Notes: generated by a model not told the origin, from the letters alone. A DNA stretch of 64,000 nucleotides from Endomicrobiia bacterium (GCA_039630545.1 JBCNUU010000004.1:32001-96000); one strand, 5' to 3'. Positions 9,324 to 27,249 are shown, counted from the stretch's first letter. A program made the numbers and translations.

Positions 9324-9351
9324 TTTAACAAATCTCCTTTCTTAATAAACT

Positions 9352-9924
9352 CTAAACTTTAATAAAATATGTTTCAGAAATTACATAATCAACATAAGTG
9401 TCAAACTTAGATACTGGCAAACAATCCAATATTTGAAAATCGTAACCAACACCACAACTTAAAGTCTTTGTTTTTTTTAATAGCTTATCATAATAACCTC
9501 CTCCGTACCCCAATCTATATCCTTTTTTATCAAAAGCTATACCTGGAACTAATATAAAATCAATGATTTCAAAAATATTTGGAATCTCACTATGTTGAGT
9601 TTCTTTTGGTTCATAGATACCAAATTTATTTTTAACAAATTCTCCATTATATTTTCTTATCAAAAGTTCCTTTTTTTCAAAATCTACTACAGGAAAAAAG
9701 AAATTTTTGCTTCTGTCATCCATCAATTTTAAGATGTTCACTTCTTTTTTAAAAGGGTAATAAATTAAAACATTTTTTGCTAATTTAAATCTCTCTAATT
9801 TAGCAATATTTTCAATAATTATTTGACTTTTTTTTTCTACTTCTTTCTCAGACAAACTTTCTCTTATTTCTAAAATTTTCTTTCTTAAAATTCGTTTTTT
9901 TTCTGTGATTTCATCTGTCGCCAT
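9352..9924 (-). CDS. 5-formyltetrahydrofolate cyclo-ligase
   Basis: FGIYEP, VPGIAFDKKGYRLGYGGGYYD. Confidence 0.93.
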   Translation of the reverse strand: MATDEITEKKRILRKKILEIRESLSEKEVEKKSQIIIENIAKLERFKLAKNVLIYYPFKKEVNILKLMDDRSKNFFFPVVDFEKKELLIRKYNGEFVKNKFGIYEPKETQHSEIPNIFEIIDFILVPGIAFDKKGYRLGYGGGYYDKLLKKTKTLSCGVGYDFQILDCLPVSKFDTYVDYVISETYFIKV

Positions 9925-11201: not shown

Positions 11202-11224
11202 AAATTAAATTACAGTTTTTTTAG

Positions 11225-11263
11225 AATATATATAAAGGAGTGAAATTAGGAAAGTTTTATGGT
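11225..11263. repeat. Left arm of the inverted repeat flanking zapA
   Basis: AATATATATAAAGGAGTgAAATTAGGAAAgTTTTATGGT equals the reverse complement of 11577-11613 except for two extra G (lower case). Confidence 0.95.
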
Positions 11264-11269
11264 TAGAGC

Positions 11270-11581
11270 TTAATTAGTATTTTCTTTTAAATATTTATCT
11301 ATCTCTTCTATAAGAGAATTTATTTTAAGTTCTAAATTTATTAATTTCTCTTCAGCTTTTTTTTCTAAACTGAATTTTTCTTTTGCTATTTCTAAAGAAG
11401 TATATGCGTAACTTCTCATCGTATCAATTTGATGTTGTTTTACTTCATTTAACTTTTTGTTAACCTGATCTGCTACAAGTTCAAAAAACATTTTTTCTAC
11501 AGGAGATTTAATGTCTAAAAAAATTTCCTGTGTGCCTATTTTTACTGAAAATTTCTCAATAATTTCTTGTTTATTTACCAT
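11270..11581 (-). CDS. zapA: Cell division protein ZapA
   Basis: 103 aa: N-terminal beta segment (FSVKIGTQ), helix ADQVNKKLNEV, SLEIAKE, C-terminal coiled coil. Synteny with a coiled-coil gene, 5-FTHF cyclo-ligase and rny. Confidence 0.75.
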   Translation of the reverse strand: MVNKQEIIEKFSVKIGTQEIFLDIKSPVEKMFFELVADQVNKKLNEVKQHQIDTMRSYAYTSLEIAKEKFSLEKKAEEKLINLELKINSLIEEIDKYLKENTN

Positions 11582-11613
11582 AAAATTTCCTAATTTACTC
11601 CTTTATATATATT
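11577..11613. repeat. Right arm of the inverted repeat flanking zapA (5' UTR, SD and ATG of zapA)
   Basis: ACCATAAAATTTCCTAATTTACTCCTTTATATATATT, 37 nt, complementary to 11225-11263. Confidence 0.95.
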
Positions 11614-11619
11614 TTTTAA

Positions 11620-11648
11620 AATATATATTATTAAAACCCTAAAGTCAA
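11620..11648 (-). promoter_or_regulatory. Predicted sigma70-type promoter of zapA
   Basis: TTGACT-N17-TATATT on the minus strand; predicted start about 11613. Confidence 0.6.
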
Positions 11649-11665
11649 TATTTATAAAAACATTA

Positions 11666-11935
11666 CTATATTTCAGAAATTTTTTCTATCAATTTTTTAA
11701 TCTTCTGTTTAACAACACCTGTCTTTGACTGAAGATGCAAGTACTCTTTATAGAAACTTTGCAGCTTTTTATTTTCTTCTTTGAGAAGATTTATATCTTG
11801 ATTAAGACGTGTATTTTCTGCTTTAAGAAGTTCAATCTGCTTTACAAATTCTTTTATCTTCTTTTCTAACAATGAAATCTGACTTTCTAAATTTTCTAAT
11901 TTGTTTAACAGACTGCTATGATTTAACTGCTCCAT
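11666..11935 (-). CDS. Small coiled-coil protein, ZapB-like
   Basis: 89 aa of continuous heptads, directly upstream of zapA. Confidence 0.55.
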   Translation of the reverse strand: MEQLNHSSLLNKLENLESQISLLEKKIKEFVKQIELLKAENTRLNQDINLLKEENKKLQSFYKEYLHLQSKTGVVKQKIKKLIEKISEI

Positions 11936-12573
11936 TATTTATTTAAATTATATCCATATTCATCAAATAACAGTGACCTTCTTCTACATTTTGGGCATAA
12001 AATTTCATAAAGATTTTCTCTTTGAGCAAACTGGACAAACTTTTTAGGACTCACATATGAACCCATTTCTTCATTTATAATCTGTATTAAATTTATATTT
12101 CCAAATGCTTTATGACCAAGTTTTTTAACAATGTATAATAGATGCGATTTCGTAGAAATTATACTATTACAAAAAGAACATACTACTAACTGATGTTTTA
12201 TTTCTTGAGATTTAAGAGTTGCTCTATCTGTGGTAGCTAAATCAAACTCTTTTGACATTACAACACCGGGTATCTTTTCATTTCTTGTTGTGCAAATCCT
12301 CGCACATTGTCCACAAAAAACACACTCATCATAATACCAGATCAAAGTTCTTTGAGCAGTTAAAGCTTCTATTTCATCTTTAAGTTTAATTGCACCAGCA
12401 GGGCATACTTCAGCACAAGCACCACAACCAATACATCCATCCTGCGAAGGTTGGGGTTTCCCACGAAAACTTTCAGGAGGAGTATGAGGTTCAAAAGGAT
12501 ATTTTGTAGTAAAAGGTCCCTTTATTAACGCTTTTATTGCTTCTTTTAATTCTCTTAATTTTGGATATTTCAT
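11935..12573 (-). CDS. NuoI/MbhN-like 4Fe-4S subunit of the membrane hydrogenase
   Basis: FTTKYPF, FRGKP, CIGCGACAEVCP, CVFCGQCARIC, extra CxxC pairs near the C terminus. Confidence 0.88.
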   Translation of the reverse strand: MKYPKLRELKEAIKALIKGPFTTKYPFEPHTPPESFRGKPQPSQDGCIGCGACAEVCPAGAIKLKDEIEALTAQRTLIWYYDECVFCGQCARICTTRNEKIPGVVMSKEFDLATTDRATLKSQEIKHQLVVCSFCNSIISTKSHLLYIVKKLGHKAFGNINLIQIINEEMGSYVSPKKFVQFAQRENLYEILCPKCRRRSLLFDEYGYNLNK

Positions 12574-12588
12574 TGGATTAAGTATATC

Positions 12589-12918
12589 CTAATTTTTATT
12601 TTTATATTCATCACATACTGAACTACTACACATCTTTACACCAGATTTATAAGCAGCTTTAGCTAATGCATGTGATGATACTGGAGAAGTCAAAAATACA
12701 AAAAACATTACCAACAAAGCTTTTAAAGCTAAATTTGTGAAAAACCCAGAGTAAACAAATATACCAAAAAATATACCACAAGTCCCCAAAGTTACACATT
12801 TAGTAGAAGCTTGTAATCTAGTATATACATCAGGAAATCTTACTAAACCTATACATCCAATGACGTCGGCTGTTATACCTATAGAGATTATTAAAAATCC
12901 TATTATTTCATTCATCAA
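12589..12918 (-). CDS. MrpG/MnhG (MbhC-like) antiporter subunit
   Basis: GLVRFPDVYTRLQASTK..TLG, LTSPVSSHALAKAAY. Confidence 0.92.
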   Translation of the reverse strand: MMNEIIGFLIISIGITADVIGCIGLVRFPDVYTRLQASTKCVTLGTCGIFFGIFVYSGFFTNLALKALLVMFFVFLTSPVSSHALAKAAYKSGVKMCSSSVCDEYKNKN

Positions 12919-13243
12919 ATCTTTTACCCTCCAAATATTTTGCTAACGCTAAATTTCCAATAAAAGATTGAAGCGCCCAGGCAATTGCTATGTCTATAAA
13001 AAATGAAGCTTTTGTAAAAATAGAAAGAATACCACAGATTCCAACTATAATAAGACCCAATATGTCCGTAGCAACAGCTCTATCTGCAGGAGTTGGACCT
13101 AAAAAGATTCTGTAAAGACACAAAATTAAACTCAAAATCATAGGAGATATAAATTTAAAAACTAAATCCATTTTAATCAATGCATTGATCACAATAAATC
13201 CAATTATGAGTAGTAATCCTAATATATATCTTGTTGTCCTCAT
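12908..13243 (-). CDS. MrpF/MnhF (MbhB-like) antiporter subunit
   Basis: RIFLGPTPADRAVATD, FIGNLALAKYL. Confidence 0.9.
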   Translation of the reverse strand: MRTTRYILGLLLIIGFIVINALIKMDLVFKFISPMILSLILCLYRIFLGPTPADRAVATDILGLIIVGICGILSIFTKASFFIDIAIAWALQSFIGNLALAKYLEGKRFDE

Positions 13244-13249
13244 ATATAT

Positions 13250-13750
13250 TTAAGAAAAAATCTTTTCTAAAATATTCTCAAACTTTTTTACTATCCTTTT
13301 AGTCGCTTCTTCTGAATCCAAACTTCTTACATAAATCCAATGCACATATATATATCCATTTTCTCTATCCACATCAACACTTAAAGTTCCAGGCGTCAAA
13401 GTTATAGAGTTAGCAAGCATTGTCAATCCAGCATCTGATTTAAGCTTTGTTTTAACCTTTACAATACCTGGTTTTATTGGCATATCAGGTAGTATAATTC
13501 TATATGCTACATCGATATTTGCCTTTATTACTTCATATAAAAAAATTATAAAATAATAAATAAACCAAAGATATCTAACCGGTTTTTTGAAACTCCATTC
13601 ATTTTGAAGATTGATATCTCCAAATAATAAAACTATCAAAAAACTACATAGTATACCTACTAATATACTATATATATCAAAACCAGACAAAATAGACCAA
13701 ATTAAGAAAATAAACAAGAATAAAAAAACTCTATTATAGAGGTATTTCAT
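13250..13750 (-). CDS. MrpE/MnhE (MbhA-like) antiporter subunit
   Basis: ANIDVA, PGIVKV, LANSITLTPGTL, YVHW. Confidence 0.93.
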   Translation of the reverse strand: MKYLYNRVFLFLFIFLIWSILSGFDIYSILVGILCSFLIVLLFGDINLQNEWSFKKPVRYLWFIYYFIIFLYEVIKANIDVAYRIILPDMPIKPGIVKVKTKLKSDAGLTMLANSITLTPGTLSVDVDRENGYIYVHWIYVRSLDSEEATKRIVKKFENILEKIFS

Positions 13751-15237
13751 TTTAGAATTGTCTTATAATAAAGCGAACCTTCATATATTGTACTTTTAAT
13801 TTTAGAAAGTAACAAATCATTTATGTTTGGATATAGCAATATACCTAAAATAATACATAAAATAGCAAGTGACAACATAGAAAATTGCATAGGAAAAGGA
13901 ACCTCTTTTTTATTTTCACTGAATTTAGTATTATCCTCAATACTATAAAATCCATATTTCAATACTTTCAGAAAACTTGCTAAAGTTAAAACACTTACCG
14001 CAACCGCAACTATAGCAGCTAAAATATTTTTTGTTTCTATACAAGCAACAATAATTAGCAACTTAGACCAAAAACCATTAAAAGGAGGAACTCCTGCTAT
14101 TGATAAACTCCCAACTACTGCTGAAAATGTAGTATTTGGCATTATTTTATTTACACAACAATATTTTTTAAGGTCCCGTGTATAAAAATTGTATTCTAAA
14201 GCTCCACTAGTTAAAAAAAGTAAAGACTTAAAAATAGAATGATTCAACATATGAAACATTCCTCCTACTATTCCTGTTGGAGATCCTAATCCGATCCCGA
14301 GCAACATATATCCCACCTGACTTATTGAATGATAAGCAAGCAATCTTTTGTAATCCCATTGATATAGGGCTAGAATTACTCCAATTATCATTGACAAAAT
14401 CCCAAGATAAAAAATTATATTCAATATCTCCTGATTTTTAGGAAATACGTTAAAAATGAACCTTACTATTAGATATATACCAAGTGTTTTTATAAGAACT
14501 CCTGACAACATTGCAGAAATTGGAGCAGGAGCAGAAGGATGTGCATCTGGTAACCACCAGTGAAAAGGTACTACTGCAGCTTTTACACTAAAACCTATAA
14601 TGAATAAAAAAAGAATAATTTTGAGTATAAAACTTCTATCAAACTCTATTGTTTTAGCTATATCTGCTAAGTTAAGAGTAGATGTATAACTGTAAGTCAA
14701 AACTATTCCCAGCAAAATCAATCCTGTAGAGATAGAACCTAAAATTATATATTTAAAAGATGCCTCTAATTCGTCTTTACCTATACCATAAGCAACCAAA
14801 GCATAAGAAGAAATTGAAGCTATTTCTAAAAACACAAATATATTGAATAAATCACCACTTATTATTACTCCATTCATACCTGCAATCATAAGCTCAAACA
14901 AAGAATAAAATCCCCAACTTTCAGTATAACTTTTCATATAAGAGATCGAATATATTCCTACAAAAAATCCTACAACATTTACTAACAAAAGCATAAATAC
15001 AGTCAATGAGTCCATTACAAGAGTTATTCCATATGGTATAACCCATCCCCCAACTTGGTACACCAAAGTTATATTTTCTGATGTGTTGATATAAAATAAA
15101 CTTACAAAACTCAAAACAACAAGTAAAAAATTAACTATATTGATAAAGATCTCAGAAAAATTTTTAACAAATCTCCCTAATAGTGAGTTAATAAAAACAC
15201 CTAATAATGGCAAAATTACAAAAAATGTTATTATCAT
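13747..15237 (-). CDS. MrpD/MbhH-like proton-conducting subunit
   Basis: GDLFNIFVFLE, EASFKY, PFHWWLPDAHPSAP, KRLLAYHSISQVGY, PPFNGFWSK. Confidence 0.92.
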   Translation of the reverse strand: MIITFFVILPLLGVFINSLLGRFVKNFSEIFINIVNFLLVVLSFVSLFYINTSENITLVYQVGGWVIPYGITLVMDSLTVFMLLLVNVVGFFVGIYSISYMKSYTESWGFYSLFELMIAGMNGVIISGDLFNIFVFLEIASISSYALVAYGIGKDELEASFKYIILGSISTGLILLGIVLTYSYTSTLNLADIAKTIEFDRSFILKIILFLFIIGFSVKAAVVPFHWWLPDAHPSAPAPISAMLSGVLIKTLGIYLIVRFIFNVFPKNQEILNIIFYLGILSMIIGVILALYQWDYKRLLAYHSISQVGYMLLGIGLGSPTGIVGGMFHMLNHSIFKSLLFLTSGALEYNFYTRDLKKYCCVNKIMPNTTFSAVVGSLSIAGVPPFNGFWSKLLIIVACIETKNILAAIVAVAVSVLTLASFLKVLKYGFYSIEDNTKFSENKKEVPFPMQFSMLSLAILCIILGILLYPNINDLLLSKIKSTIYEGSLYYKTILK

Positions 15238-15244
15238 AGAAAAT

Positions 15245-15586
15245 TTAACCTTTTAAATTTTTAATTTCTGTAATATCAAATGTCTTATGTTTTTCATAAA
15301 TACGTAAAGCAATAGCAACCATTAAAATAGTTACAGAGAGTCCTATTACTATAGAGGTTAAAACTAATGCCTGCGGAACAGGATCTACCATTGGTTGCGT
15401 AGTTGAGTGAGTTTTTAAAAATATTGGGAAAATACCATCTTTTCTATATCCTACTACTATAAAGAACAAGTTAAGGGAGTTGTCCATTATAATAAAAGAA
15501 ATTATTATTTTTAACAAATTTTTTTTAGTTATTAAACCATATAGTCCAACAAAAAACATTGTTAAACACAAAACATATACTAACAT
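15245..15586 (-). CDS. MrpC/MnhC (MbhG-like) subunit
   Basis: KKNLLKII, DPVPQALVLTSIVIG. Confidence 0.93.
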   Translation of the reverse strand: MLVYVLCLTMFFVGLYGLITKKNLLKIIISFIIMDNSLNLFFIVVGYRKDGIFPIFLKTHSTTQPMVDPVPQALVLTSIVIGLSVTILMVAIALRIYEKHKTFDITEIKNLKG

Positions 15587-15588
15587 AT

Positions 15589-16053
15589 TTACTCTCCCTT
15601 ATGTAAAGAAAAAAGAATAAGACACAAAAATGCACTAAGCATACCAAAACCAACCTTAAGCATAATAGCAACATTAGCAGGCAAAATAATTCCACCAGAA
15701 AACAAACTAAAAATTTTACCCTGCCCTAAAAAGTCTTTAAAAAAAATACCAGTAGCAAATCCTAAAATCGCTATAGATAAAAACATCAAACCCCCTGTTG
15801 TTTCTAAAATGGAAGCTAAATACTCATTAATCCTTCTTACTACAAAATCTTTACCATAAGCAAGAATAATATGGATAAAAGACAAAACAACAATCACACC
15901 ACCCGCAAAACCACCACCTGGACCAAGATGCCCAAAAAATGTTATATATAAACCATATAAAATAATCAATAAAATTGTCCATCTTGTAACAGTTTTTACT
16001 ATTAAAGACATTCCTGAATTATTTTTACTATTCTTTTTCATTAGATTTACCAA
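15589..16053 (-). CDS. MrpB/MnhB (MbhF-like) subunit
   Basis: GHLGPGGGFAGG, LFSGGII, LKVG. Confidence 0.9.
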   Translation of the reverse strand: MVNLMKKNSKNNSGMSLIVKTVTRWTILLIILYGLYITFFGHLGPGGGFAGGVIVVLSFIHIILAYGKDFVVRRINEYLASILETTGGLMFLSIAILGFATGIFFKDFLGQGKIFSLFSGGIILPANVAIMLKVGFGMLSAFLCLILFSLHKGE

Positions 16054-16555
16054 TTTTTCTTAGAATTAATACAGCACCTAAAATTGCTGTAAATAAAACT
16101 ACAACTTCCCCTAATGTATCATAAGCTCTATAATTTAAAATTATCGCCGAAACTACATCCACAGCACCAGTATCTTTTATAGTATTATTAACATAATATT
16201 CAGCCAATTTATATTTAGGCTTTCCAAAAGAAGGAAGATCCTTAAATGAGAACCCTACAATAGTTAAAAATACAAAAACAAAAAATATTATAGGTAGTCT
16301 TAAGAAAAAACTCTTTTTATTATAAATCGTTTCATCTCTTACAACAGTCGCTCTTATTAATATTACTAAAGACAAAATTTCAACTACAAATTGAACTATA
16401 GCAACATCAGGTGCTTGAAGTAATAAAAACAAAAGCGTTAAAATCAATCCTACTGCTCCTAAGCTTACAACTGAAGAAAGTAAATCTTTTATCTCTAAAG
16501 ATATTATAGCAGCAATTATCATTAAAAATATAAGAAGTGTAATAATGCCTTCCAT
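16028..16555 (-). CDS. MbhD/MbhE-like fusion (C-terminal MrpA domains)
   Basis: LQAPDVAIVQ and VVSAIILNYRAYDTLGE. Confidence 0.85.
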   Translation of the reverse strand: MEGIITLLIFLMIIAAIISLEIKDLLSSVVSLGAVGLILTLLFLLLQAPDVAIVQFVVEILSLVILIRATVVRDETIYNKKSFFLRLPIIFFVFVFLTIVGFSFKDLPSFGKPKYKLAEYYVNNTIKDTGAVDVVSAIILNYRAYDTLGEVVVLFTAILGAVLILRKIGKSNEKE

Positions 16556-16562
16556 AAATTAA

Positions 16563-18437
16563 TTAAAATATAAACAATATAATTAAAATTAAAATTCCTA
16601 AAAAAACCCAAGAAATATACGAATGCAAGTTCCCATTATGTAATTTTGACAAAAAATCACCAGTTTTAAAAATAAGTTTTTTCCCAAGCAGATATACATC
16701 TAAAAATTCTAATTGAATTACTGTTTTCACTAACGAAGCTAATAAAGATAAAATACCGTAGAACCAATTATAAAAATCTAATAATCTTTGTTGTGCAAAG
16801 TTATATAAAATATAAAAAGGATATGTTTCAACAATTGTAAGATAAAAATCTGTTGCAGGTATGGTGGTGTTATTTAATTTATTCTCTTCGCCTAACATAT
16901 ATACTTTTACTTTTCGTGGTTTATCTACAAATAGCATATAGATTAAACTGCCAATAATAAGACCTGTTATTAAAAGATAAAAAGCTACTTTTGCATTCCA
17001 TTCACCTGACAATTTAAAACTATAAATATTAACCATTTTACTAACTAAACTTATAGGAACTTCATAAGCAAAAACTCCAAATATTACACATAATATAGAT
17101 AACATTCCCATAGATAAAATACAGTTAAATTTTTCTATTTTTCTAGGTGAAATTTCATTTTTTTGTGTTCCAGAAAGAAATAATGAATGGAGCACTTTTA
17201 CAAAAGATGCTAAAGTCAAAGCACTTCCGAATATTGCACTTATTAATACAAACATGACAACAACTGATTTCGTAGAACCAATACTTAAAATAAGAGATTG
17301 GTATATCATCCATTTAGATACAAAACCATTAAAAGGTGGTATTCCTGCAATAGATACCGCAGCTATTAAAGTAAACAAAAAAGTGTACGGTAAAACTTTA
17401 GATAAGTTTTTAGGTTTAGAAAGTTCTACATCTTCAGCATTTTTTTCTACCATATCCGCAGATAGAAAAAGTAATGTTTTATATATTATATTATTTATCA
17501 TGTGAAAAACTCCAGCAATCATACCTATAGTAGTGCCAGTAGAAATACCTACTATCATATATCCAACTTGAGATATCGCATGATAGGACAAAAGCTTTTT
17601 CAAATTGTGTTGGTGTAAAGCCATAAAAACAGCAATTAGTATAGTTAACGCCCCTAAAAACATTAAAAATAAATGAGTTTTTAATACAAATATATCTTTT
17701 GTTACTCTTACAAACCAATAAATACCTATTATTTTATCTATAGCACCAACAACATAAGCTGAAACATTTGCAGGTAAGCTGCAGGAAGCTTCTGGTATCC
17801 AGTTGTGAAAAGGAACACTTCCTAATTTGCCTAAAGCCGCTATTATTAATAGAGTAAAAATAAGAGAATTATTTGTTACATCTAAGTTAAAACTTTCTGT
17901 TAATATATATCTTCCTGTTTTAACAATTAACAAAATAATACCTACAAAAAGACAAAAATCAGTTATAGCAATTGTTACTAGTGACTTTGTAGCTACCTTA
18001 TAGTTATCTTCTTGTGTAACGAATCTTATCATTAAATAAATTATTAATCCTAAAATTTCCCATGATATCAAAATTATTAGTAGATTTTTCGAAAAAATAA
18101 GTAGATTAGAAAAAGAAAGTATAAGGAATATAAAAGAAAAGTATGTGTTTTCTTTTCCATATGAAACTAATTCTTTAGAAAAAATAACAATAATAAATGT
18201 AAAGAAACAACATAAGATCACATTTATTGTAGAAGTAAGATCATTCGATAAAGCAATATCAAATTGTTTAACCCAAGGTAAAACAATTTCGTATTTTGAA
18301 AATAATAAATAAAAAGCACTCACCAAGCATAAAAATGAACCAACAACACTTATCCAGTAATTTTTTGTTTTTTTAAAAAACAAATTAAGTACACCTAAAG
18401 TCAAGGGTAACAAAATTGTCAATAATAAGTAGTTCAT
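16563..18437 (-). CDS. NuoL/MrpA-like antiporter-like subunit with C-terminal extension
   Basis: SWE, KLGSVPFHNWIP, KKLLSYHAISQVGY, PPFNGFVSKW, C-terminal HNGNLHSY. Confidence 0.88.
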   Translation of the reverse strand: MNYLLLTILLPLTLGVLNLFFKKTKNYWISVVGSFLCLVSAFYLLFSKYEIVLPWVKQFDIALSNDLTSTINVILCCFFTFIIVIFSKELVSYGKENTYFSFIFLILSFSNLLIFSKNLLIILISWEILGLIIYLMIRFVTQEDNYKVATKSLVTIAITDFCLFVGIILLIVKTGRYILTESFNLDVTNNSLIFTLLIIAALGKLGSVPFHNWIPEASCSLPANVSAYVVGAIDKIIGIYWFVRVTKDIFVLKTHLFLMFLGALTILIAVFMALHQHNLKKLLSYHAISQVGYMIVGISTGTTIGMIAGVFHMINNIIYKTLLFLSADMVEKNAEDVELSKPKNLSKVLPYTFLFTLIAAVSIAGIPPFNGFVSKWMIYQSLILSIGSTKSVVVMFVLISAIFGSALTLASFVKVLHSLFLSGTQKNEISPRKIEKFNCILSMGMLSILCVIFGVFAYEVPISLVSKMVNIYSFKLSGEWNAKVAFYLLITGLIIGSLIYMLFVDKPRKVKVYMLGEENKLNNTTIPATDFYLTIVETYPFYILYNFAQQRLLDFYNWFYGILSLLASLVKTVIQLEFLDVYLLGKKLIFKTGDFLSKLHNGNLHSYISWVFLGILILIILFIF

Positions 18438-18441
18438 ACTA

Positions 18442-19839
18442 TTAAATTTTAATTAACTTTAAAATCATTTCTGGAAATAATCCAACCACTACAGAAAAAA
18501 GTGTAAGCAAGACAATCACCAAAACCATAGATAATGTTTTTTCTTTAATCTCAAATTTTTTCTTACCCAAGAATACAGAGTTGTACAATCTCATCAAATA
18601 TAGCAGAGTTAAAATTGAACCTGCAACAGCTACAAAAGCTACAAAAATTCTCTGTGTCTCTAAAGCACCTTTTAATATAAAAAATTTACCCCAGAATCCA
18701 CTGAAAATAGGAAAACCTATTATTGAAAAACTACATATTAAAAAACAAATAGAAGTTACAGGCATTGTTTGGATTAATCCACCTAATTTACTAATATCTC
18801 TTTCATTTACATTATGTTCTACTATACCCGCTGATAAAAATAGTCCTGCTTTAGATAAAGCATGACTTAAAATATAAAATATAGCTCCTTTAATACTATC
18901 TGTTATATTTATTACAAAACCTAAAAATACATAACTCAACTGAGATATAGTAGAATACGCTAAAATTCTTTTAATATCTGTCTCAATCAAAGCCATAAAA
19001 CCTGCTATTAATATTGTTGACAAAAATATAACAAGTGTAAATTCCTGAAATCTCTGTGAAATTTCAAAAGTAAAGTTAAAGATTCTACCAAAACTATATA
19101 TTCCAATTTTAACTAAAACAGCTGCATGTAATAATGCCGTTACAGGTGTAGGAGCAACTCCTGCTTCAGGTAGCCACACATGAAAAGGAAACTGTGCAGA
19201 TTTAGCTATCATTCCTGATAGCAAAAATAAAGCTGTTGTATCAGAAATTTGTTTATTTTTTAGTTCATAAATATTTGCACTACCATATTCTACATAAAGT
19301 ATACAAATTCCAACTAACATCAAAGCTGAACCCAAAAGGGTCATAAGAAAAGATTTATTTGCTTTAGATAAATGTACATTTCCTCTATAAAAACCTATCA
19401 GCTGCCATGAACAAATAGATGTCAGTTCCCAACAAATATACATAATTATAAGGTTTCCACTAAAAGTTAAACCTAACATTGAAGTTACAAATAATGTAAC
19501 ATAAAAATAGTATATGCTTTGATTTTCATAATGTGACATATAATCAAATGAATAAATAACTATTAATGTGGCTATTATAATTGAAGTTAATGCCATTATT
19601 AAAGCATAACTATCTAATATAAATATATCCCAATTTTTAAATTTTAACATTAAAAAATCACTTTCTATATTGGAAAAATATCTAAACGACAAACTGATTA
19701 TTCCAAATAGTCCCAAAACCAAAGCTATCAAAGAGGAAATTCTTGAGATTTTTTCATAAGTTGAAATTCTGGCTAAAAAAGTTCCAACTAATAAAACACT
19801 AAAAGAAAATAAAATTATAAAACTATTTGTAATAATCAT
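18442..19839 (-). CDS. NuoL/M/MrpD-family antiporter-like subunit
   Basis: WELTS, KSAQFPFHVWLPEAGVAPTPVTALLHAA, KRILAYSTISQL. Confidence 0.9.
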   Translation of the reverse strand: MIITNSFIILFSFSVLLVGTFLARISTYEKISRISSLIALVLGLFGIISLSFRYFSNIESDFLMLKFKNWDIFILDSYALIMALTSIIIATLIVIYSFDYMSHYENQSIYYFYVTLFVTSMLGLTFSGNLIIMYICWELTSICSWQLIGFYRGNVHLSKANKSFLMTLLGSALMLVGICILYVEYGSANIYELKNKQISDTTALFLLSGMIAKSAQFPFHVWLPEAGVAPTPVTALLHAAVLVKIGIYSFGRIFNFTFEISQRFQEFTLVIFLSTILIAGFMALIETDIKRILAYSTISQLSYVFLGFVINITDSIKGAIFYILSHALSKAGLFLSAGIVEHNVNERDISKLGGLIQTMPVTSICFLICSFSIIGFPIFSGFWGKFFILKGALETQRIFVAFVAVAGSILTLLYLMRLYNSVFLGKKKFEIKEKTLSMVLVIVLLTLFSVVVGLFPEMILKLIKI

Positions 19840-21020
19840 ATATGTTTTTTAATCCACTCCGTTTTTTGTTGAGATAACTTAATTAAATCATTCCATGTTA
19901 AAATTTCTTTTTTAGTATTTACATCTATAGCAACGGTTCTTTCTGTACAACAATAACACGGATCTACAGAAGCTAAGGTAATGGCAGCATCAGAGATTGT
20001 TTGTCCTACAGCTGCAACTTTATTTGAAGCTATATTTACATAAGACGGAGCACGAATTTTATGTCTTACGGGTCTATTGGAACCATCTGACCTTATATAG
20101 TGGAAAACTTCTCCACGCGGAGCTTCGTGTCTGCCTATCCCTTCACCTGGTGGTATAAAGTCAACCTTAACTTCAATATTACCTTCTGGTTCTTTTTTTA
20201 ATTTATCTAAACATTGTTTTATTATTCTAATAGATTCATACATTTCAAGAATTCTAATTACTGCCTTGTCAAAAACATCTCCATTATACAACACAGGCAC
20301 ATTAAATTGAACCTCTCCATATGCTGCATAAGGATCGTCTCGCCTTACATCTATATCTATACCACTTGCACGGGCAGTTGGGCCTACAACACAGTATTTA
20401 ATAGCATCCTCTTTGGTAAGTACTCCAACACCCTTAAGGCGCGCATGAATTACAGGGTCATCCATTACAGCACCTTTAAACATATCAACTACAGGAACTA
20501 AATCATCACACATTTTCTCTATTTGTGGTATTATCTCTTTCGGTATATCTTTTCTTACACCTCCAACTTTAAACATAGAATAGTGTTGCCGATTACCAGA
20601 AATAACTTCTAATATATCACAAACATTCTCCCTATATTTCCACGACCACATCCAGATGGTGTTGTAACCAATAAAATGTCCTGCTAAACCAAGCCATAAT
20701 AAGTGTGAATGTAATCTTTCAAGTTCTCCTATTGTACTTCTTATATATTTTGCTCTGGTTGGAATATCAATACCAAGTAAATCCTCCACAGCATTAACAT
20801 ATGCAAAAGGATGACTTGTAGAACATATACCACAAATACGTTCAACTAAAAATGTAACTTGGTCATAATGTTTTGTAGTAGAAAGCTGTTCAACACCACG
20901 ATGGTTATAACCAATCTCAATTTCAATATCTACAACTTTTTCACCGTCAACATATAACTTGAAAAATTCAGGTTCTTCCTGTAGTGGATGGTAAGGACCT
21001 ATCGGTATTATTTTTTTCAT
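19836..21020 (-). CDS. Group 4 [NiFe]-hydrogenase large subunit (MbhL/EchE-like)
   Basis: GPYHP, GYNHRGVE, L1 motif ERICGICSTSH, EAPRGE, L2 motif DPCYCCTER followed by a C-terminal extension. Confidence 0.9.
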   Translation of the reverse strand: MKKIIPIGPYHPLQEEPEFFKLYVDGEKVVDIEIEIGYNHRGVEQLSTTKHYDQVTFLVERICGICSTSHPFAYVNAVEDLLGIDIPTRAKYIRSTIGELERLHSHLLWLGLAGHFIGYNTIWMWSWKYRENVCDILEVISGNRQHYSMFKVGGVRKDIPKEIIPQIEKMCDDLVPVVDMFKGAVMDDPVIHARLKGVGVLTKEDAIKYCVVGPTARASGIDIDVRRDDPYAAYGEVQFNVPVLYNGDVFDKAVIRILEMYESIRIIKQCLDKLKKEPEGNIEVKVDFIPPGEGIGRHEAPRGEVFHYIRSDGSNRPVRHKIRAPSYVNIASNKVAAVGQTISDAAITLASVDPCYCCTERTVAIDVNTKKEILTWNDLIKLSQQKTEWIKKHI

Positions 21021-21460
21021 ATAACATCCTCTCTTAGAGGATATTTACCCTCTGGCCAATCTTCAGGTAATAATAGATGCTTAAGATTAGGATGACCTAT
21101 GAAGTTTACTCCTACCATCTCCCATATTTCTCTTTCTATCCACTCAGCAGCAGAAAAAACTTTTGTTAAACTTTCTATTTCAGGTTGATTTTTATCAAGC
21201 TTTACTTTTAAAGACACTATCTCTCCTGTTTTGTCATAACTAAAGTGATAAAGTATTTCTATATTATTTTCACAATCTATCCCTGTTGCCGTAGAAAATC
21301 TAAAACCAAAGTCTTCAAATAAAACTTTAACACATTCTATAATATTCTGTTTATTGATTTCTATATAATACCTTTTGTCATTTTTCCTAAAAAAATCCAC
21401 AATTTTATCTTTAAGTTTATTTTTTACTTCATCAATTATTTTTTCTTTCATATTCATCAA
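21017..21460 (-). CDS. NuoC/MbhK-like subunit
   Basis: EILYHF, AEWIEREIWEMVGVNFIGHP, YPLR. Confidence 0.92.
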   Translation of the reverse strand: MMNMKEKIIDEVKNKLKDKIVDFFRKNDKRYYIEINKQNIIECVKVLFEDFGFRFSTATGIDCENNIEILYHFSYDKTGEIVSLKVKLDKNQPEIESLTKVFSAAEWIEREIWEMVGVNFIGHPNLKHLLLPEDWPEGKYPLREDVI

Positions 21461-21909
21461 AGATAAGTTGTTATTTTTTTTCTTAATGTATCAATTAACT
21501 TTACAATACCACCAATTATAGCTTCTGGTTTTGGTGGACATCCAGGAATATATGCTGAAACAGGGACAATCTCATCAACATTACATGGAGTATTAAAAGA
21601 ATCTTTAAAAACACCTCTACCGCACGCACAAGTTCCAACTGCTACCACAAAACAAGGTTTGGGTGTTTGTTCATATAAGTACTTTAATTTTTGCCAGTTT
21701 TTATAATTAGGCACGCCTGTAACCAGTAGTATATCGGCATGTCTAATAGAACCAACTAACTGAATACCAAATCTTTCTAAATCGTATCTGGGCGTTAATG
21801 TATCTAATATTTCTATATCACAATTGTTACATGGAGATAAAGGTAAATGAAAAACCCACAATGATTTTAAAAGAGACTTTTTAATCAAACCCATCTTTTT
21901 ATTCCACAA
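21457..21909 (-). CDS. Hydrogenase small subunit (MbhJ/NuoB-like)
   Basis: CNNCDIE (CxxC as in hydrogenases, not the CC of NuoB), RHADILLVTG, GTCA, IPGCPP. Confidence 0.92.
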   Translation of the reverse strand: MWNKKMGLIKKSLLKSLWVFHLPLSPCNNCDIEILDTLTPRYDLERFGIQLVGSIRHADILLVTGVPNYKNWQKLKYLYEQTPKPCFVVAVGTCACGRGVFKDSFNTPCNVDEIVPVSAYIPGCPPKPEAIIGGIVKLIDTLRKKITTYL

Positions 21910-21912
21910 GTT

Positions 21913-22824
21913 TTATTTAAAACTTATTTTAAAAATTAAAGAAAGAATTGAATTCAACAAACTAATAGGAAAAATCCAGAACCAGAAAAACTTTAAAACT
22001 TGATCAATTTTTAACCTGGGATTTGTATTTTTGATCATTATGATTATTATCAAAACTAATAAATATTCAATAAAAAACAATATTAAGTTTCTACCACCAT
22101 TAAAGTATAACAACACTAAAAACGCAGGCACAATTGATAACAAAATTTGTTTTGTTAACTTTATCAATCCTAATAACAAACCAGAATATTCTATTAAAAT
22201 ACCTCCTGCTAACTCAGTCTCTGCCTCTTGAGCATCAAATGGAACAAAATTTAACTTAGCATGTAATATAATTAATGTAATAAGAAACGATATAAAACTA
22301 AATACGGTTAGATAATTATTTTGCATTATATCTAACAATTTTATACTCTTAGATTGAATAATCGGCACTAACAAAGATGTAATAAATGGCAACTCATAAG
22401 ATAAAAGCATTTTCATTTCTCTTGCAACACCTACAGAAGCTATAGCATTACCAGAAGAAGAAGCTCCTAGTATTAACATTAAAGATGGTATAGTCATAAT
22501 ATATATCAAAACAATGATATCACCCACAAAACTTTTTTTAAAGAATATAACCAACCATAAAATTGTAGCAGATAATATTATACAAGCAAAGCTTATAAAT
22601 GGTGCTATCAAAAACATAAAATTTGCATTTTCAGGAATAGTAACTTCTTTTAATAAGAGTTTAAAAAAGTCATATAAATTCTGCATAATAGAAGGTCCTT
22701 TTCTATATTGCAGTCTCGCTGTAAGTTTTCTATCTATATATCCCACAAATATTGACAAAACAAAAGAAAAAAGAAATCCCGGAAAAACAATATAAAAAAA
22801 TAATGAATTTATTATTTCAGTCAT
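21913..22824 (-). CDS. NuoH/MbhM-like membrane subunit
   Basis: DRKLTARLQYRKGP, DFFKLLLKE, PFDAQEAETELAGG..EYSG, PRLKIDQ. Confidence 0.92.
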   Translation of the reverse strand: MTEIINSLFFYIVFPGFLFSFVLSIFVGYIDRKLTARLQYRKGPSIMQNLYDFFKLLLKEVTIPENANFMFLIAPFISFACIILSATILWLVIFFKKSFVGDIIVLIYIMTIPSLMLILGASSSGNAIASVGVAREMKMLLSYELPFITSLLVPIIQSKSIKLLDIMQNNYLTVFSFISFLITLIILHAKLNFVPFDAQEAETELAGGILIEYSGLLLGLIKLTKQILLSIVPAFLVLLYFNGGRNLILFFIEYLLVLIIIIMIKNTNPRLKIDQVLKFFWFWIFPISLLNSILSLIFKISFK

Positions 22825-22827
22825 GGG

Positions 22828-23343
22828 TTATTCATTAACTATCCATTTAATAACTTTAACAACAAGATTCTGGTTTATTTCATAGATATTTTCTTTTTCG
22901 TTTGGCAATATTTCTGTATATTTTATAGCCCCTTCAGGACAGGTAACACTGCACACTGGTGGATTTTCCTCAGAAGCTCTACTGAGACAGAAATCACATT
23001 GAGAACTCTTATATTCTAATACATCTTTATAAATTGTACCAAATGGACAAGCTACTAAACAACTTTTACACGATGTACATTTAAATAAACTTCTGTGTAA
23101 AATTCCATCTTTATCTTTAAACAAAGCTTCATTAGGACAACTGTTTATACAAAAAGCATCTTCACATTTTCTACAGATAAAATATTGCAAAATTTTTGAA
23201 AAAAATTTTTCAAATCCTCTATTTAACGATTTCTCTTTAGGAAGATCTCTATAAAAATGAGAATGTTTATAAAAATATGAACATTCAGCTTTACATTCTT
23301 TGCAACTATAACACTTTTCTATATCTACAAAAATTCTTTTCAT
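22828..23343 (-). CDS. 4Fe-4S dicluster electron-transfer protein (CooF/HycB-like)
   Basis: CYSCKECKAEC, CRKCEDAFCINSCP, CTSCKSCLVACPFG, CDFC...CSVTCPEGA. Confidence 0.85.
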   Translation of the reverse strand: MKRIFVDIEKCYSCKECKAECSYFYKHSHFYRDLPKEKSLNRGFEKFFSKILQYFICRKCEDAFCINSCPNEALFKDKDGILHRSLFKCTSCKSCLVACPFGTIYKDVLEYKSSQCDFCLSRASEENPPVCSVTCPEGAIKYTEILPNEKENIYEINQNLVVKVIKWIVNE

Positions 23344-23348
23344 TTTTA

Positions 23349-24170
23349 TTATTCAAATGGTTCAGGTATATCCTTAATTTGTTCCCAACTAAAAACAGGA
23401 CCATCTTTGCAAATAAAATAACTTCCAATCTGACAATGTCCACATTTTCCTAACCCGCAACTCATATTTCTTTCCATTGAGAGATATATTTGGTGAGGTT
23501 TAAATTTCATATCTATAAGTTTAAGAGTCGTAAATTTCATCATTACAGGAGGACCACATACTACAGCCACTGAGTTTCCAACATCTACTTTCACCTTATC
23601 TAAAAGACAGGTAACCACACCTACCGTCTCATTCCATTCACCAGGTTGACACTTATCCACTGAACGAAGAATCTCCAATCTTTCAATTTTGGACCATTCA
23701 GGAAAAAGATATTTATAAACAATATCTTGTGGAGTTCTTGCTCCATAACATAGTATTATTTTTTTAAATTCATTTATTCTTTCAAACAAAGTAAACAACA
23801 GAGATCTCAAAGGAGCAAGTCCAACACCACCACCTATTATCAATACTTCTTTACCTTTAAAACTATCCACAGGATATCCCTTCCCATAAGGACCTCTTAT
23901 TCCTACAATCTCACCTTCTTTCATAGAATGTAAAACTTCTGTCATTCTTCCAACACGCATAATTGTAACATCTATTGTCTCAGTTTTATAAGGAGAAGAA
24001 GAAGGAGTAAATGGCGCTTCTCCAACTCCATACACTGTAAGTTCTATAAATTGTCCTGTCTCAAATGAAAATTTATCACCATTTAATGGTTTAAGCGTAA
24101 AAGTTTTTATATTTGAAGTTTCCTGGATGATTTTAATAATTTTAAAATTTTTGGGTCGATATATATTCAT
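23349..24170 (-). CDS. FAD/NAD(P)-binding protein, sulfhydrogenase gamma (HydG)/AsrB family
   Basis: GQF, GVGEAPF, RGPYG, GGGVGLAPLRS, CGPPVMM, ERNMSCGLGKCGHC..CKDGP. Confidence 0.9.
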   Translation of the reverse strand: MNIYRPKNFKIIKIIQETSNIKTFTLKPLNGDKFSFETGQFIELTVYGVGEAPFTPSSSPYKTETIDVTIMRVGRMTEVLHSMKEGEIVGIRGPYGKGYPVDSFKGKEVLIIGGGVGLAPLRSLLFTLFERINEFKKIILCYGARTPQDIVYKYLFPEWSKIERLEILRSVDKCQPGEWNETVGVVTCLLDKVKVDVGNSVAVVCGPPVMMKFTTLKLIDMKFKPHQIYLSMERNMSCGLGKCGHCQIGSYFICKDGPVFSWEQIKDIPEPFE

Positions 24171-25216
24171 TGTTCAAACTTTAGAACTTTCTCACCTTTT
24201 GCTAAAACCAGATTTCTTATTACTTTTCTTATGTCAATTTTAGCAGGACACACTTCAATGCATCTGCCACATCCACTACATGCATACATTTTAAAGTTTT
24301 CATATCTATATACAAATTTGCACTGATATCTATTTCTAAACCTCTGGTATTTATATTTTCTAGGATTAGCCCCACCAGCTACACGAGCATAACCTGTAAA
24401 GTGACACACATCCCAGACTTTATCTCTATACTGGTTTACAACTGAAACAGATGCTTCTCTTATCAAAAAACAATAACAACTTGGACAGATAAAGTTGCAA
24501 CCTCCACACTGAACACATTTTTCTGATTCTTTTTTCCATGTATCTTTTATATCGTAGGTATTTTTAAGCGCAAGATAATATTTGGTTTTATTTTTTTCTT
24601 CTTTAATAAATTCTTTATTAAATTCTATTATTTTTCTTTCAGCTACTTTTCTTACACTGTCTCTTTTTAAAATTTCACTCTCAGTAGGTGGCTCAAATTC
24701 ACTAAAATTTTCTTTTAAAAATTTTTCTCCTTTTAGAGAAAATGCTTCTAATATTAAGTTATTTTCATCTACAAAAGAAATATTTATGTCACTACCATCT
24801 TCTTTTTCTACATATGGTTTTCCTCCGACTATGCTACAAAAACAACTCTCTTTAGGACTTACACAATCAGAACTAATGATGAATGTATTATCTTTGTAAG
24901 TTTTATACTGTTCGTCTATATAATCTTTTAAAAACATATTATCTAAAATCTTTAATGCTTTTAAATCACAAAATTTTACATCTATCAGTAATACATTTTC
25001 TACCTCAAAAGAAATATCTGATATGGGATCTTTTGGTTTAAAAAAGAAAATTTTAGGTGGTGTTAATGTTCTAATATTTAACAACGCTAAATTTTTTATC
25101 TCATCAGTATTTACTATCTTTTTATAAGTTTGATCAAAACAATGCTGAATTATCTTAAAATTAGATAATTTTGCAACAACTGATAAAAGGTCAGAATAAT
25201 TGACGCTTTTTTTCAT
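24167..25216 (-). CDS. 4Fe-4S protein, sulfhydrogenase beta (HydB)/AsrA family
   Basis: CDLKA, C..P..SCFC, CVQCGGCNFICPSCYCF, WDVC, CSGCGRCIEVCPAKID. Confidence 0.88.
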   Translation of the reverse strand: MKKSVNYSDLLSVVAKLSNFKIIQHCFDQTYKKIVNTDEIKNLALLNIRTLTPPKIFFFKPKDPISDISFEVENVLLIDVKFCDLKALKILDNMFLKDYIDEQYKTYKDNTFIISSDCVSPKESCFCSIVGGKPYVEKEDGSDINISFVDENNLILEAFSLKGEKFLKENFSEFEPPTESEILKRDSVRKVAERKIIEFNKEFIKEEKNKTKYYLALKNTYDIKDTWKKESEKCVQCGGCNFICPSCYCFLIREASVSVVNQYRDKVWDVCHFTGYARVAGGANPRKYKYQRFRNRYQCKFVYRYENFKMYACSGCGRCIEVCPAKIDIRKVIRNLVLAKGEKVLKFEQ

Positions 25217-25226: not shown

Positions 25227-25244
25227 TAGTGAAATTTTTCACAA
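25227..25244. promoter_or_regulatory. Rex-type operator upstream of the hydrogenase operon
   Basis: TAGTGAA-ATTT-TTCACAA, one mismatch to TTGTGAA-N4-TTCACAA, 10 bp from the start codon. Confidence 0.75.
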
Positions 25245-25260: not shown

Positions 25261-25288
25261 AATATAAAATAAAAAATAATTTTTTCAA
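25261..25288 (-). promoter_or_regulatory. Predicted promoter of the hydrogenase operon
   Basis: TTGAAA-N16-TATATT on the minus strand; AT-rich context weakens the call. Confidence 0.4.
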
Positions 25289-25320: not shown

Positions 25321-25746
25321 TTAAGACATCTCATTTATTTTCTGACATTTTATACAAAGATCTGTCCAGGGTAAAGCGTTTAATCTTTTTTTAGGAATTT
25401 TTTTTCCGCATTTGCTACAAAAACCATATTCGCCTTTTTCTATTTTTTCTAAAGCAATATTTATTAAATTTAAAAGATTTATCTGAGTGTCAGAAAGTTC
25501 TCTACGAACTTCTTTCCCTAAGTTATGCTCCGCAATATCTATTTCATCACCTATTTCTAATGGAAGTTCTATATTATTGTTTTTTTGTAATTTTAAAATT
25601 TCATTATATTTTTCCAAAAGTTTCTTTTTATAAAAATCTAAATCTTTTTTTGAAATTTTTAATTTTCTAGAAGAGGTTTCCTTAACTTCTTTTTTTCTTA
25701 ATTTTCTGAATTTATCTATTTTTTTTACAGTTTTTTTCTTTTTCAT
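25321..25746 (-). CDS. DksA/TraR C4 zinc-finger protein
   Basis: GDEIDIA (DxxDxA), YGFCSKCG, RLNALP, CIKC. Confidence 0.9.
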   Translation of the reverse strand: MKKKKTVKKIDKFRKLRKKEVKETSSRKLKISKKDLDFYKKKLLEKYNEILKLQKNNNIELPLEIGDEIDIAEHNLGKEVRRELSDTQINLLNLINIALEKIEKGEYGFCSKCGKKIPKKRLNALPWTDLCIKCQKINEMS

Positions 25747-25755
25747 AATATTAAA

Positions 25756-27210: not shown

Positions 27211-27220
27211 TTTTTGTTTA

Positions 27221-27249
27221 AGTTTATATTTTTTTCTTTTTTTTGTCAA
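27221..27249 (-). promoter_or_regulatory. Predicted promoter of the decarboxylase gene
   Basis: TTGACA-N17-TAAACT; the -10 box ends 10 nt before the ATG. Confidence 0.6.

What the first reader, a model, noticed from the sequence alone, without database searches (positions are those of the whole stretch)
11935..25216. Mrp/Mbh-type [NiFe]-hydrogenase operon headed by a sulfhydrogenase-type NAD(P)H module
Seen: one tightly packed 17-gene run. HydB/AsrA-like Fe-S, HydG/AsrB-like FAD/NAD(P) and CooF-like Fe-S genes come first, followed by NuoH-, B-, C-like genes, the large subunit, antiporter-like genes, an Mrp set and a NuoI-like gene. No group 3b alpha/delta subunits or AsrC occur in the window. 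Established: characterised Mbh/Ech enzymes use ferredoxin, CO or formate modules, whereas HydB/G is the NAD(P)H module of soluble group 3b enzymes. Inference: an ion-translocating NAD(P)H:H+ oxidoreductase, either pumping ions during H2 to NAD(P)+ transfer or spending ion-motive force to dispose of NAD(P)H as H2. The Rex-type box fits the latter. Similar operons may already be catalogued from genomes (for example as group 4g), but I know of no biochemical description.
Basis: partly seen in the sequence, partly recalled or inferred. Interest (0 to 1): 0.72.

Follow-up and report, generated by a model that had tools for sequence, protein, structure and literature searches.

The report
Hun membrane hydrogenase, likely NADH-fed
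This 17-gene operon encodes a membrane-bound nickel-iron hydrogenase of the already named 'Hun' type, for which no biochemical study was found; it likely draws electrons from NADH rather than from ferredoxin as published, which would make it a hydrogen-producing cousin of respiratory complex I.

Summary
The 17-gene run is real and intact (- strand, 25216 to 11935; gaps -26 to +15 bp). It is a copy of the 'Hun' [NiFe]-hydrogenase/Mrp operon described from genomes (Glass et al., bioRxiv 10.1101/536078; CGIC/CYCC signature met), with one extra antiporter subunit found in 28 of 80 relatives. This scan reported Hun on other genomes at least eight times. The published model feeds it from ferredoxin; my tests favour NADH. 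HunA/B match sulfhydrogenase beta/gamma. HunB keeps an Asp at the NAD/NADP-discriminating position (63 of 63). No group 3b alpha or AsrC was found in the genome. hunAB sits in 57 of 58 informative loci. A Rex box precedes hunA here and in 10 of 54 loci, all ten in rex-bearing genomes (0 of 30 without rex). Rex also controls ferredoxin-type Ech, so this is not proof. I favour NADH-to-H2 with ion export at very low H2 (0.4). Known kind; electron donor and direction untested.

The parts
25227..25244 (-). Rex-type operator, 1 mismatch to TTGTGAAN4TTCACAA, ending 10 bp before the hunA start
   Evidence: same position (-28 to -53) in 9 of 21 Elusimicrobiota relatives
25261..25288 (-). sigma-70-like promoter candidate just upstream of the box (weak: scan found 91 sites, 91.4 expected)
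24167..25216 (-). HunA, sulfhydrogenase-beta/AsrA-like Fe-S protein, 349 aa
   Evidence: NF040829 E 3.5e-49; 9nez_B E 2.6e-43; 15 Cys at 98-100% in 60 sequences
23349..24170 (-). HunB, sulfhydrogenase-gamma/AsrB-like FAD/NAD/2Fe-2S protein, 273 aa, invariant Asp172
   Evidence: AlphaFold model pLDDT 92.7, TM 0.91 to 9nf0_C
22828..23343 (-). HunC, CooF/HycB-like protein with four 4Fe-4S motifs, 171 aa (likely adaptor)
21913..22824 (-). HunD, NuoH-like membrane anchor, 303 aa
   Evidence: PF00146 E 4e-60
21457..21909 (-). HunE, NuoB-like small subunit (CNNC), 150 aa
21017..21460 (-). HunF, NuoC-like, 147 aa
   Evidence: PF00329
19836..21020 (-). HunG, [NiFe] large subunit, CGIC/CYCC, HycE-like C-terminal extension, 394 aa
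   Evidence: motifs in 79 of 79
18442..19839 (-). extra NuoL/MrpA-like antiporter subunit, 465 aa (absent from the 16-gene form)
   Evidence: best PDB hit NuoL 3rko_L E 1e-60; in 28 of 80 loci; E138, K213, K385 invariant
16563..18437 (-). HunH, long antiporter-like subunit, 624 aa (length like MbsH'); TM5 Glu present here, Gly in 51 of 71 sequences
16028..16555 (-). MbhD/E-like (MrpA C-terminus), 175 aa
15589..16053 (-). MnhB-like, 154 aa
15245..15586 (-). MnhC-like, 113 aa
13747..15237 (-). MnhD/MbhH-like antiporter subunit, 496 aa, pump residues conserved in 48-49 of 49
   Evidence: 6cfw_H E 3e-79
13250..13750 (-). MnhE-like, 166 aa
12908..13243 (-). MnhF-like, 111 aa
12589..12918 (-). MnhG-like, 109 aa
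11935..12573 (-). HunP, NuoI/HycF-like, two 4Fe-4S motifs plus four further conserved Cys, 212 aa

Best explanation
The operon encodes a Hun-type membrane [NiFe]-hydrogenase that likely oxidises NADH at HunB, likely passes the electrons through HunA, HunC, HunP and HunE to the nickel-iron site to make H2, and would export Na+/H+ through its Mrp-like arm only when H2 is held very low. Shown: gene set and order, intact Ni and Fe-S ligands, maturation genes, NAD-type nucleotide site, Rex operator. Inferred: assembly into one complex, NADH as physiological donor, direction toward H2 (from derepression by Rex when NADH is high), and conserved coupling polarity. With Rnf (ferredoxin to NAD+), present in 44 of 51 hun genomes, it would form a two-step chain from ferredoxin through NADH to H2, feeding a V-type ATPase that likely uses Na+. 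At higher H2 the cell's HydABC-type [FeFe] enzyme would be the outlet.
For: HunA/HunB are sulfhydrogenase beta/gamma homologues; the HunB model superposes on NADPH-bound SHI gamma at TM 0.91. HunB is the most conserved soluble accessory subunit aligned (mean column identity 63% against 41, 42 and 47% for A, C, P). Its GGxG, GA[RK]T, CGPP and 2Fe-2S motifs are kept. Asp172 is invariant (63 of 63; 24 of 25 further loci, one not located). It aligns with Asp in NADH enzymes (NqrF, corn nitrate reductase, PyrK, an NfnA homologue) and with Thr-Arg in NADPH-using SHI gamma. Asp/Thr/Ser swaps switch NAD/NADP use in this fold (PMC5817062 table; positional equivalence recalled). hunAB precedes hunC in 57 of 58 informative loci. 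AsrC-like matches occur in 3 of 50 hun genomes, none over cut-off, and group 3 alpha-like matches in 10 of 50; neither occurs in this genome. A Rex box lies upstream of hunA in 10 of 54 loci, all in rex-bearing genomes, against 0 of 30 genomes without a rex match. rex stands directly upstream of hunA in 6 loci. The genome has two rex genes, HypD and a HycI protease. NADH to H2 gives -10 to -16 kJ/mol at 1 to 0.1 Pa H2 with NAD+/NADH = 1, about one ion.
Against: NADH to H2 is endergonic above about 100 Pa H2 at NAD+/NADH = 1 and above about 10 Pa at a ratio of 10, and this copy has three antiporter subunits with intact charged residues, more than such a small span could drive if all pumped outward. 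Rex also controls ferredoxin-dependent Ech in C. bescii. Ten of 20 rex-bearing genomes show no box directly before hunA (one, L020, has it before an overlapping rex gene), including the two closest large-subunit relatives L001 and L002. Box-bearing loci are kin in part (4 label changes on a quick tree), so the Fisher p of 2e-5 overstates. The genome already has a HydABC-type NADH outlet. L078 has hunC-G without hunAB.
Confidence: 0.4

Rival explanations
1. Published Hun model: reduced ferredoxin drives H2 evolution and ion export as in Mbh; HunABC only relay electrons, and the NAD site is a side port.
For: Energetics are comfortable (-18 to -45 kJ/mol at 1000 to 1 Pa). A PFOR operon lies in the window. 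HunC is a CooF-like four-cluster protein that could dock ferredoxin. Rex also controls Ech. Proposed by Glass et al. and for group 4g in HydDB.
Against: An invariant NAD-type binding site and the high conservation of HunB are unexplained. Mbh itself needs no flavoprotein. Rnf, which competes for the same ferredoxin, occurs in 44 of 51 hun genomes, and a free NAD port would short-circuit it.
Confidence: 0.2
2. H2 uptake with normal polarity: ion influx pulls electrons from trace H2 onto NAD+, supplying NADH (for example to the methyl branch of the Wood-Ljungdahl pathway), as Ech, Eha and Ehb do for ferredoxin.
For: Needs no new coupling. Several antiporter subunits give ample drive. Acetyl-CoA synthase occurs in 17 of 51 hun genomes and in 9 of the 10 Rex-box genomes. 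Group 4e is listed as reversible.
Against: Rex derepresses when NADH is already high (passage). This genome has a broken CODH gene and no molybdopterin FDH match, and it has HydABC for H2 uptake.
Confidence: 0.15
3. One reading: inverted coupling, so that ion-motive force is spent to push NADH to H2, or ions are pumped during H2 to NAD+.
For: NADH to H2 costs +7 to +27 kJ/mol at 1 kPa to 1 bar, one to two ions. Rex control fits NADH disposal. The TM5 Glu of HunH is lost in most relatives, so the membrane arm is not a plain MBS copy.
Against: No group 4 enzyme with inverted polarity is known to me (recalled). The core is closest to Mbh and FHL, and Mbh, MBS and complex I share coupling elements.
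Confidence: 0.12
4. Confurcation: NADH and reduced ferredoxin are oxidised together to 2 H2 with ion export, a membrane-bound counterpart of HydABC.
For: The summed energy is -15 to -27 kJ per 2 H2 at 1000 to 100 Pa with Fd at -500 mV. It fits Rex, the NAD site and normal polarity. Some Omnitrophota with a Wood-Ljungdahl pathway have a group 4g enzyme as sole hydrogenase.
Against: HunB is of the FNR/PyrK/NfnA fold, whose flavin is not the bifurcating one in Nfn (recalled). No HdrA-, NfnB- or EtfAB-type subunit is in the operon.
Confidence: 0.1
5. HunA and HunB act apart from the hydrogenase, with another enzyme or as a free diaphorase.
For: L078 lacks hunAB. Group 3 alpha-like genes exist in 10 of 50 hun genomes.
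Against: Overlapping or 3-5 bp gaps join A-B-C-D; the linkage holds in 57 of 58 loci across many phyla; no partner was found in this genome.
Confidence: 0.03

Closest known systems
Hun supercomplex (hunA-P), Glass et al., bioRxiv 10.1101/536078; HydDB group 4g
   Same: Gene set and order, AsrAB-like head without AsrC, CooF-like HunC, CGIC-CYCC motifs, Mrp set, NuoI-like last gene; reported there from Elusimicrobia among other phyla.
   Different: One extra NuoL/MrpA-like subunit (17 genes; the paper's figure and Table S5 were not seen and may show it). The paper assigns ferredoxin as donor; its Hun section does not mention Rex or NADH as donor.
'Enigmatic' group 4 hydrogenase of Saganbacteria RX5A (PMC6349859) and 'Mbh-Mrp-oxidoreductase type' of Elusimicrobia (bioRxiv 10.1101/765248)
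   Same: Group 4 core, Mrp subunits, asrA, asrB, cooF. Supplementary Note 5 notes the FAD/NAD domain and likens asrA/B to nuoE/F. Function called unknown.
   Different: The Saganbacteria form has a molybdopterin-like gene, absent from this genome.
Pyrococcus furiosus MBH (group 4d, PDB 6CFW)
   Same: Best structural relative of the large subunit (E 7e-93) and of the MnhD-like subunit (E 3e-79); Na+ module.
   Different: MBH has 14 subunits, one pump and no flavoprotein; its L2 motif is CLSC, here CYCC.
P. furiosus MBS (PDB 6U8Y)
   Same: Two antiporter subunits, one about 620 aa.
   Different: MBS reduces polysulfide rather than protons and lacks the NiFe site (recalled); this operon keeps all four Ni-ligating Cys.
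Group 3b sulfhydrogenase SHI/SHII (PDB 9NEZ, 9NF0); AsrAB; FlxAB (recalled)
   Same: HunA/HunB fold and cofactor ligands.
   Different: No alpha/delta or AsrC partner; Asp rather than Thr-Arg at the 2'-phosphate position.
Respiratory complex I
   Same: Works like it under the best reading: NADH flavoprotein, Fe-S wire, NuoBCDHI core, antiporter arm.
   Different: FNR-type FAD module instead of NuoEFG; protons instead of quinone as acceptor; Mrp Na+ module.

Membership tests
Hun complex | 16 genes hunA-P in conserved order | tested here: met
   All present in order, plus one extra antiporter gene; letters mapped from the paper's text
Hun complex | L1/L2 motifs CGIC-CYCC | tested here: met
   Window and 79 of 79 aligned large subunits
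Hun complex | AsrAB-like genes without AsrC | tested here: met
Hun complex | Clusters with the paper's reference HunG (RXG63129) | not tested
   Reference not fetched; the tree holds only loci
HydDB group 4g | HydDB classifier assignment of the large subunit | not testable with these tools
   Glass et al. report HunG as 4g
Mbh, group 4d | NiFe large subunit with Mrp Na+ module | tested here: met
Mbh, group 4d | One antiporter pump, no flavoprotein module | tested here: not met
   Three antiporter genes and HunAB
MBS/Mbx/Ehr | Loss of NiFe-binding cysteines | tested here: not met
   C63, C66, C355, C358 present; HypD and HycI in the genome
Group 3b sulfhydrogenase | beta and gamma subunits | tested here: met
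   Homologous but below the equivalog cut-offs
Group 3b sulfhydrogenase | alpha and delta subunits, soluble | tested here: not met
   Only one NiFe large subunit in the genome, group 4 type
Formate- or CO-coupled group 4a/4b/4c | FDH or CODH input module | tested here: not met
   None in the operon; no PF00384 and no TIGR01702 match in the 95.5% complete genome
Rex regulon | Operator near the promoter and rex gene in the genome | tested here: met
   no CRP-type domain over cut-off
Rex regulon | NADH-sensitive binding of Rex to the site | not testable with these tools
   Needs EMSA

The most novel reading that the evidence does not exclude
Hun is an NADH:H+ oxidoreductase, a 'proton-respiring complex I': it conserves energy on the span from NADH to H2 and, in series with Rnf, forms a quinone-free two-pump chain in low-energy anaerobes of many phyla, switched on by Rex when NADH accumulates. 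Genome models that treat these group 4g enzymes as ferredoxin-driven would then need revising.
Probability: 0.3. Interest if true: 0.75.

Novelty: new member of a known kind. Interest (0 to 1): 0.4.

Why it matters
Group 4g is listed as of undetermined role in HydDB. Hun is widespread in uncultured anaerobes: 570 candidate stretches in one capped scan, and 9 of 9 genomes of this family carry a close HunB. If it takes NADH, it is an ion-coupled hydrogenase linked to the NAD pool, a missing functional neighbour of complex I and a route for energy conservation near the thermodynamic limit. The operon itself is not new. What this study adds is two testable handles, Asp172 and the Rex operator, and the polarity argument that separates the possible mechanisms.

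Tried and rejected
Complex prediction of HunA with HunC: no verdict (score 0.00, mark 0.32); not used either way. RNA runs: no RNA holder listed. Promoter/terminator scan: counts at chance level (91 against 91.4; 4 against 4.0). CRP as owner of the box (same TGTGA-N6-TCACA core, recalled): disfavoured, because there is no cNMP domain over cut-off, the boxes keep the Rex flanks, and they track rex. NADPH as nucleotide: disfavoured by Asp172. Mbx/Ehr-type non-hydrogenase: rejected, Ni ligands intact. Formate or CO input in this organism: no FDH match and a broken CODH gene. The HunG tree is the quick tree only; L032 and L072 (split large subunits) were left out, and it was not used for origin claims. 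The rex search covered 50 of the 54 loci (L075, L076, L077, L080 left out; none has a box). One search for a paper on the SHI structure found nothing. The journal version of the Elusimicrobia paper is not held; the preprint was read instead. Searches for a biochemical study or an NADH/Rex reading of Hun found none in the held library, which lacks most subscription papers.
Full report
Observation. The run is as described: 17 ORFs on the minus strand from 25216 to 11935, separated by -26 to +15 bp. Pfam and NCBIfam give in order: sulfhydrogenase-beta/AsrA-like, sulfhydrogenase-gamma/AsrB-like, CooF-like, NuoH, NuoB, NuoC, large subunit, two antiporter-like proteins (465 and 624 aa), MbhD/E, MnhB, MnhC, MnhD, MnhE, MnhF, MnhG, NuoI-like. 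The large subunit is closest to MbhL and HycE among solved structures and keeps both Ni motifs. The genome (1.6 Mb, 95.5% complete) has HypD and a HycI-type protease, so a matured enzyme is plausible. The closest large subunits (88-89%) are from MAGs titled Endomicrobi(i)a, phylum Elusimicrobiota.

What it is. Glass et al. (bioRxiv 10.1101/536078; passages and the whole Hun section read; figures and supplements not available) named a 16-subunit operon 'Hun': AsrAB-like HunAB without AsrC, HunC, a group 4g large subunit with CGIC-CYCC motifs, Mrp genes. The window meets the gene set, order and motifs; CGIC and CYCC hold in 79 of 79 aligned large subunits. Matheus Carnevali et al. (PMC6349859; main-text passages; passages of supplementary file 11; files 13-29 not searched) described the same arrangement in Saganbacteria, noted the FAD/NAD domain and likened asrA/B to nuoE/F. 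Meheust et al. (bioRxiv 10.1101/765248; passages) list an 'Mbh-Mrp-oxidoreductase type' of unknown function in Elusimicrobia. Williams et al. (PMC8542988, PMC9324843; passages) and HydDB (PMC5037454; passages) treat group 4g as putatively ferredoxin-coupled. Earlier notes of this scan report Hun on other genomes eight times in one look-up; I had reached the Hun, Rex and NADH readings before that call (notes). The 17th gene, a NuoL/MrpA-like subunit, occurs in 28 of the 80 loci fetched, so it is a common variant.

Do the first genes belong to the hydrogenase? Of the best 80 loci of 570 candidates, 58 had hunC with at least 2 kb upstream, and 57 carried hunA and hunB; L078 did not. In 25 further loci around HunB, hunA was present in all 25 (one is the window's own and at least two repeat earlier loci). 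Alternative partners are scarce: AsrC-like matches in 3 of 50 genomes, none over cut-off, and group 3 alpha-like matches in 10 of 50. This genome has one NiFe large subunit, no NIR_SIR and no molybdopterin match. Physical assembly is inferred from gene linkage only.

Which nucleotide? HunA and HunB match P. furiosus SHI beta and gamma (E 2.6e-43 and 1.5e-52). An AlphaFold model of HunB (pLDDT 92.7) fits NADPH-bound SHI gamma at TM 0.91. The Fe-S cysteines and nucleotide motifs are conserved. HunB is more conserved (63% mean column identity) than HunA, HunC or HunP (41, 42, 47%), which is hard to square with an idle NAD site. Asp172 is invariant in 63 of 63 sequences. In the printed alignments it faces Asp in NqrF, corn and Ulva nitrate reductase, PyrK and an NfnA homologue, and Thr-Arg in SHI gamma. 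A review table (PMC5817062; passages) lists D239T in cytochrome b5 reductase, S920D in nitrate reductase and S223D in FNR as NAD/NADP switches; that these are the same position is my recall. NADH is therefore likely.

Rex. The site at 25227-25244 has one mismatch to the consensus given in PMC5317091 (passages) and is one of four such sites in the genome. A perfect box at window 37564-37581 precedes a class V aminotransferase and serA, the pair that is Rex-controlled in C. bescii (PMC6391272; passages); this is a useful internal control. Upstream of hunA, 10 of 54 loci have a box with at most two mismatches. Among the 50 of these searched for rex, 20 have it: all 10 box loci, against 0 of 30 without a rex match. 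rex lies directly upstream of hunA in L007, L008, L010, L011, L015 and L020; L020 has a perfect box before rex, and L017 has a one-mismatch box. In Elusimicrobiota, 9 of 21 other loci with upstream sequence have a box at -28 to -53. Against: L001 and L002 have rex but no box, the MAGs are incomplete, kin are not independent (four label changes on a quick tree), and Rex also governs the ferredoxin-dependent Ech operon in C. bescii.

How it may work. The genome has PFOR next to rnf, GAPDH, a rex-headed HydABC-type [FeFe] operon and a V-type K subunit; Na+ specificity is read from motifs I recall. RnfC occurs in 44 of 51 hun genomes. With textbook potentials at 25 C, NADH to H2 costs +18 kJ/mol at 1 bar, is near zero at 100 Pa with NAD+/NADH = 1 (10 Pa at a ratio of 10), and yields -10 to -16 kJ/mol at 1 to 0.1 Pa with a ratio of 1. 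In MBH, MBS and complex I the coupling elements are shared and pump number scales with the energy span (PMC7684303; passages). Ion export accompanies electron flow toward the catalytic site (established knowledge). Keeping the polarity leaves three options: NADH to H2 with export at very low H2, ion-driven H2 to NAD+, or co-feeding with ferredoxin. I commit to the first (0.4), because it alone fits the NAD site, Rex and Rnf without new chemistry. Its weak point is the membrane arm. All three antiporter subunits here keep TM5 Glu and the TM7 and TM12 Lys, whereas the long subunit has Gly for the TM5 Glu in 51 of 71 sequences. Mrp-type subunits may carry protons inward for Na+ exchange, so stoichiometry cannot be read from gene count. 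The published ferredoxin model keeps 0.2, H2 uptake 0.15, inverted coupling 0.12, confurcation 0.1 and independent HunAB 0.03.

Verdict. A real, intact member of a family named from genomes. Seven library searches found no biochemical study of it, though most subscription papers are not held. The value lies in a testable correction of its electron donor. Interest 0.4; 0.75 if the NADH:H+ pump is shown.

Noticed in passing
G000:C45:31620-47355 (part in L088, L100): Wood-Ljungdahl cluster (acetyl-CoA synthase by PF03598, an RnfC2-like fusion; metV, metF, fhs, acsE, acsD, folD by eye) in which the CODH gene upstream of acsB is a broken remnant; no intact CODH or molybdopterin FDH match in the genome. 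G002 also has ACS without a CODH match.
   Followed up: partly
window 50547-58523: Tetrameric pyruvate:ferredoxin oxidoreductase genes run directly into rnfCDGEAB and then rpsB-tsf-pyrH-frr on the same strand.
   Followed up: partly
window 37564-37581: Perfect Rex box 152 bp upstream of a class V aminotransferase and serA, the same pair as in the C. bescii Rex regulon.
   Followed up: partly
G000:C23:25555-34296 (part in L096): rex-hydB-hydA-hydC operon followed by hydG/E/F-like genes; HydB is long (713 aa) with two thioredoxin-like ferredoxin domains by eye; no Rex box with two or fewer mismatches upstream.
   Followed up: partly
L038:6089-7705 and other WOR-3 loci: An FdhF-like protein of about 530 aa is inserted between hunB and hunC; it keeps the N-terminal 4Fe-4S motif but does not align the FDH active-site His, so it may be a NuoG-like scaffold.
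   Followed up: partly
L031:1151-5187, L034: A second group 4-like cluster ending in a NuoI-GltD-like fusion (616 aa) lies directly upstream of hunA: two different NAD(P)H modules side by side.
   Followed up: no
L041, L045, L055, L062, L073: Hun-type large subunits in MAGs titled Rhodospirillaceae, Oceanospirillum, Lysobacterales and Gammaproteobacteria, forming one starred clade; hunABC seen in L041 and L073. Possible route to a culturable host; binning not checked.
   Followed up: no
L008 and L011, upstream of hunA: A molybdopterin oxidoreductase (689 aa), a second hunA-like gene, fdhD and rex precede the hun operon.
   Followed up: no
L043, L053, L054, L067, L046, L040: Reduced membrane arms: the MnhD-like gene is missing in L043, L053, L054 and L067, and most or all small Mrp genes are missing in L040 and L046.
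   Followed up: no
window 25321-29705: dksA-like gene and an Orn/Lys/Arg decarboxylase upstream of hunA, divergent from two genes that look like carboxy(nor)spermidine decarboxylase and dehydrogenase (by eye); in L001 and L002 dksA abuts hunA (11-12 bp) and the Rex box is gone.
   Followed up: partly
window 7773-11935: zapB, zapA, rarA-like ATPase, 5-formyl-THF cyclo-ligase-like and rny-like genes follow hunP on the same strand without a gap after hunP.
   Followed up: no
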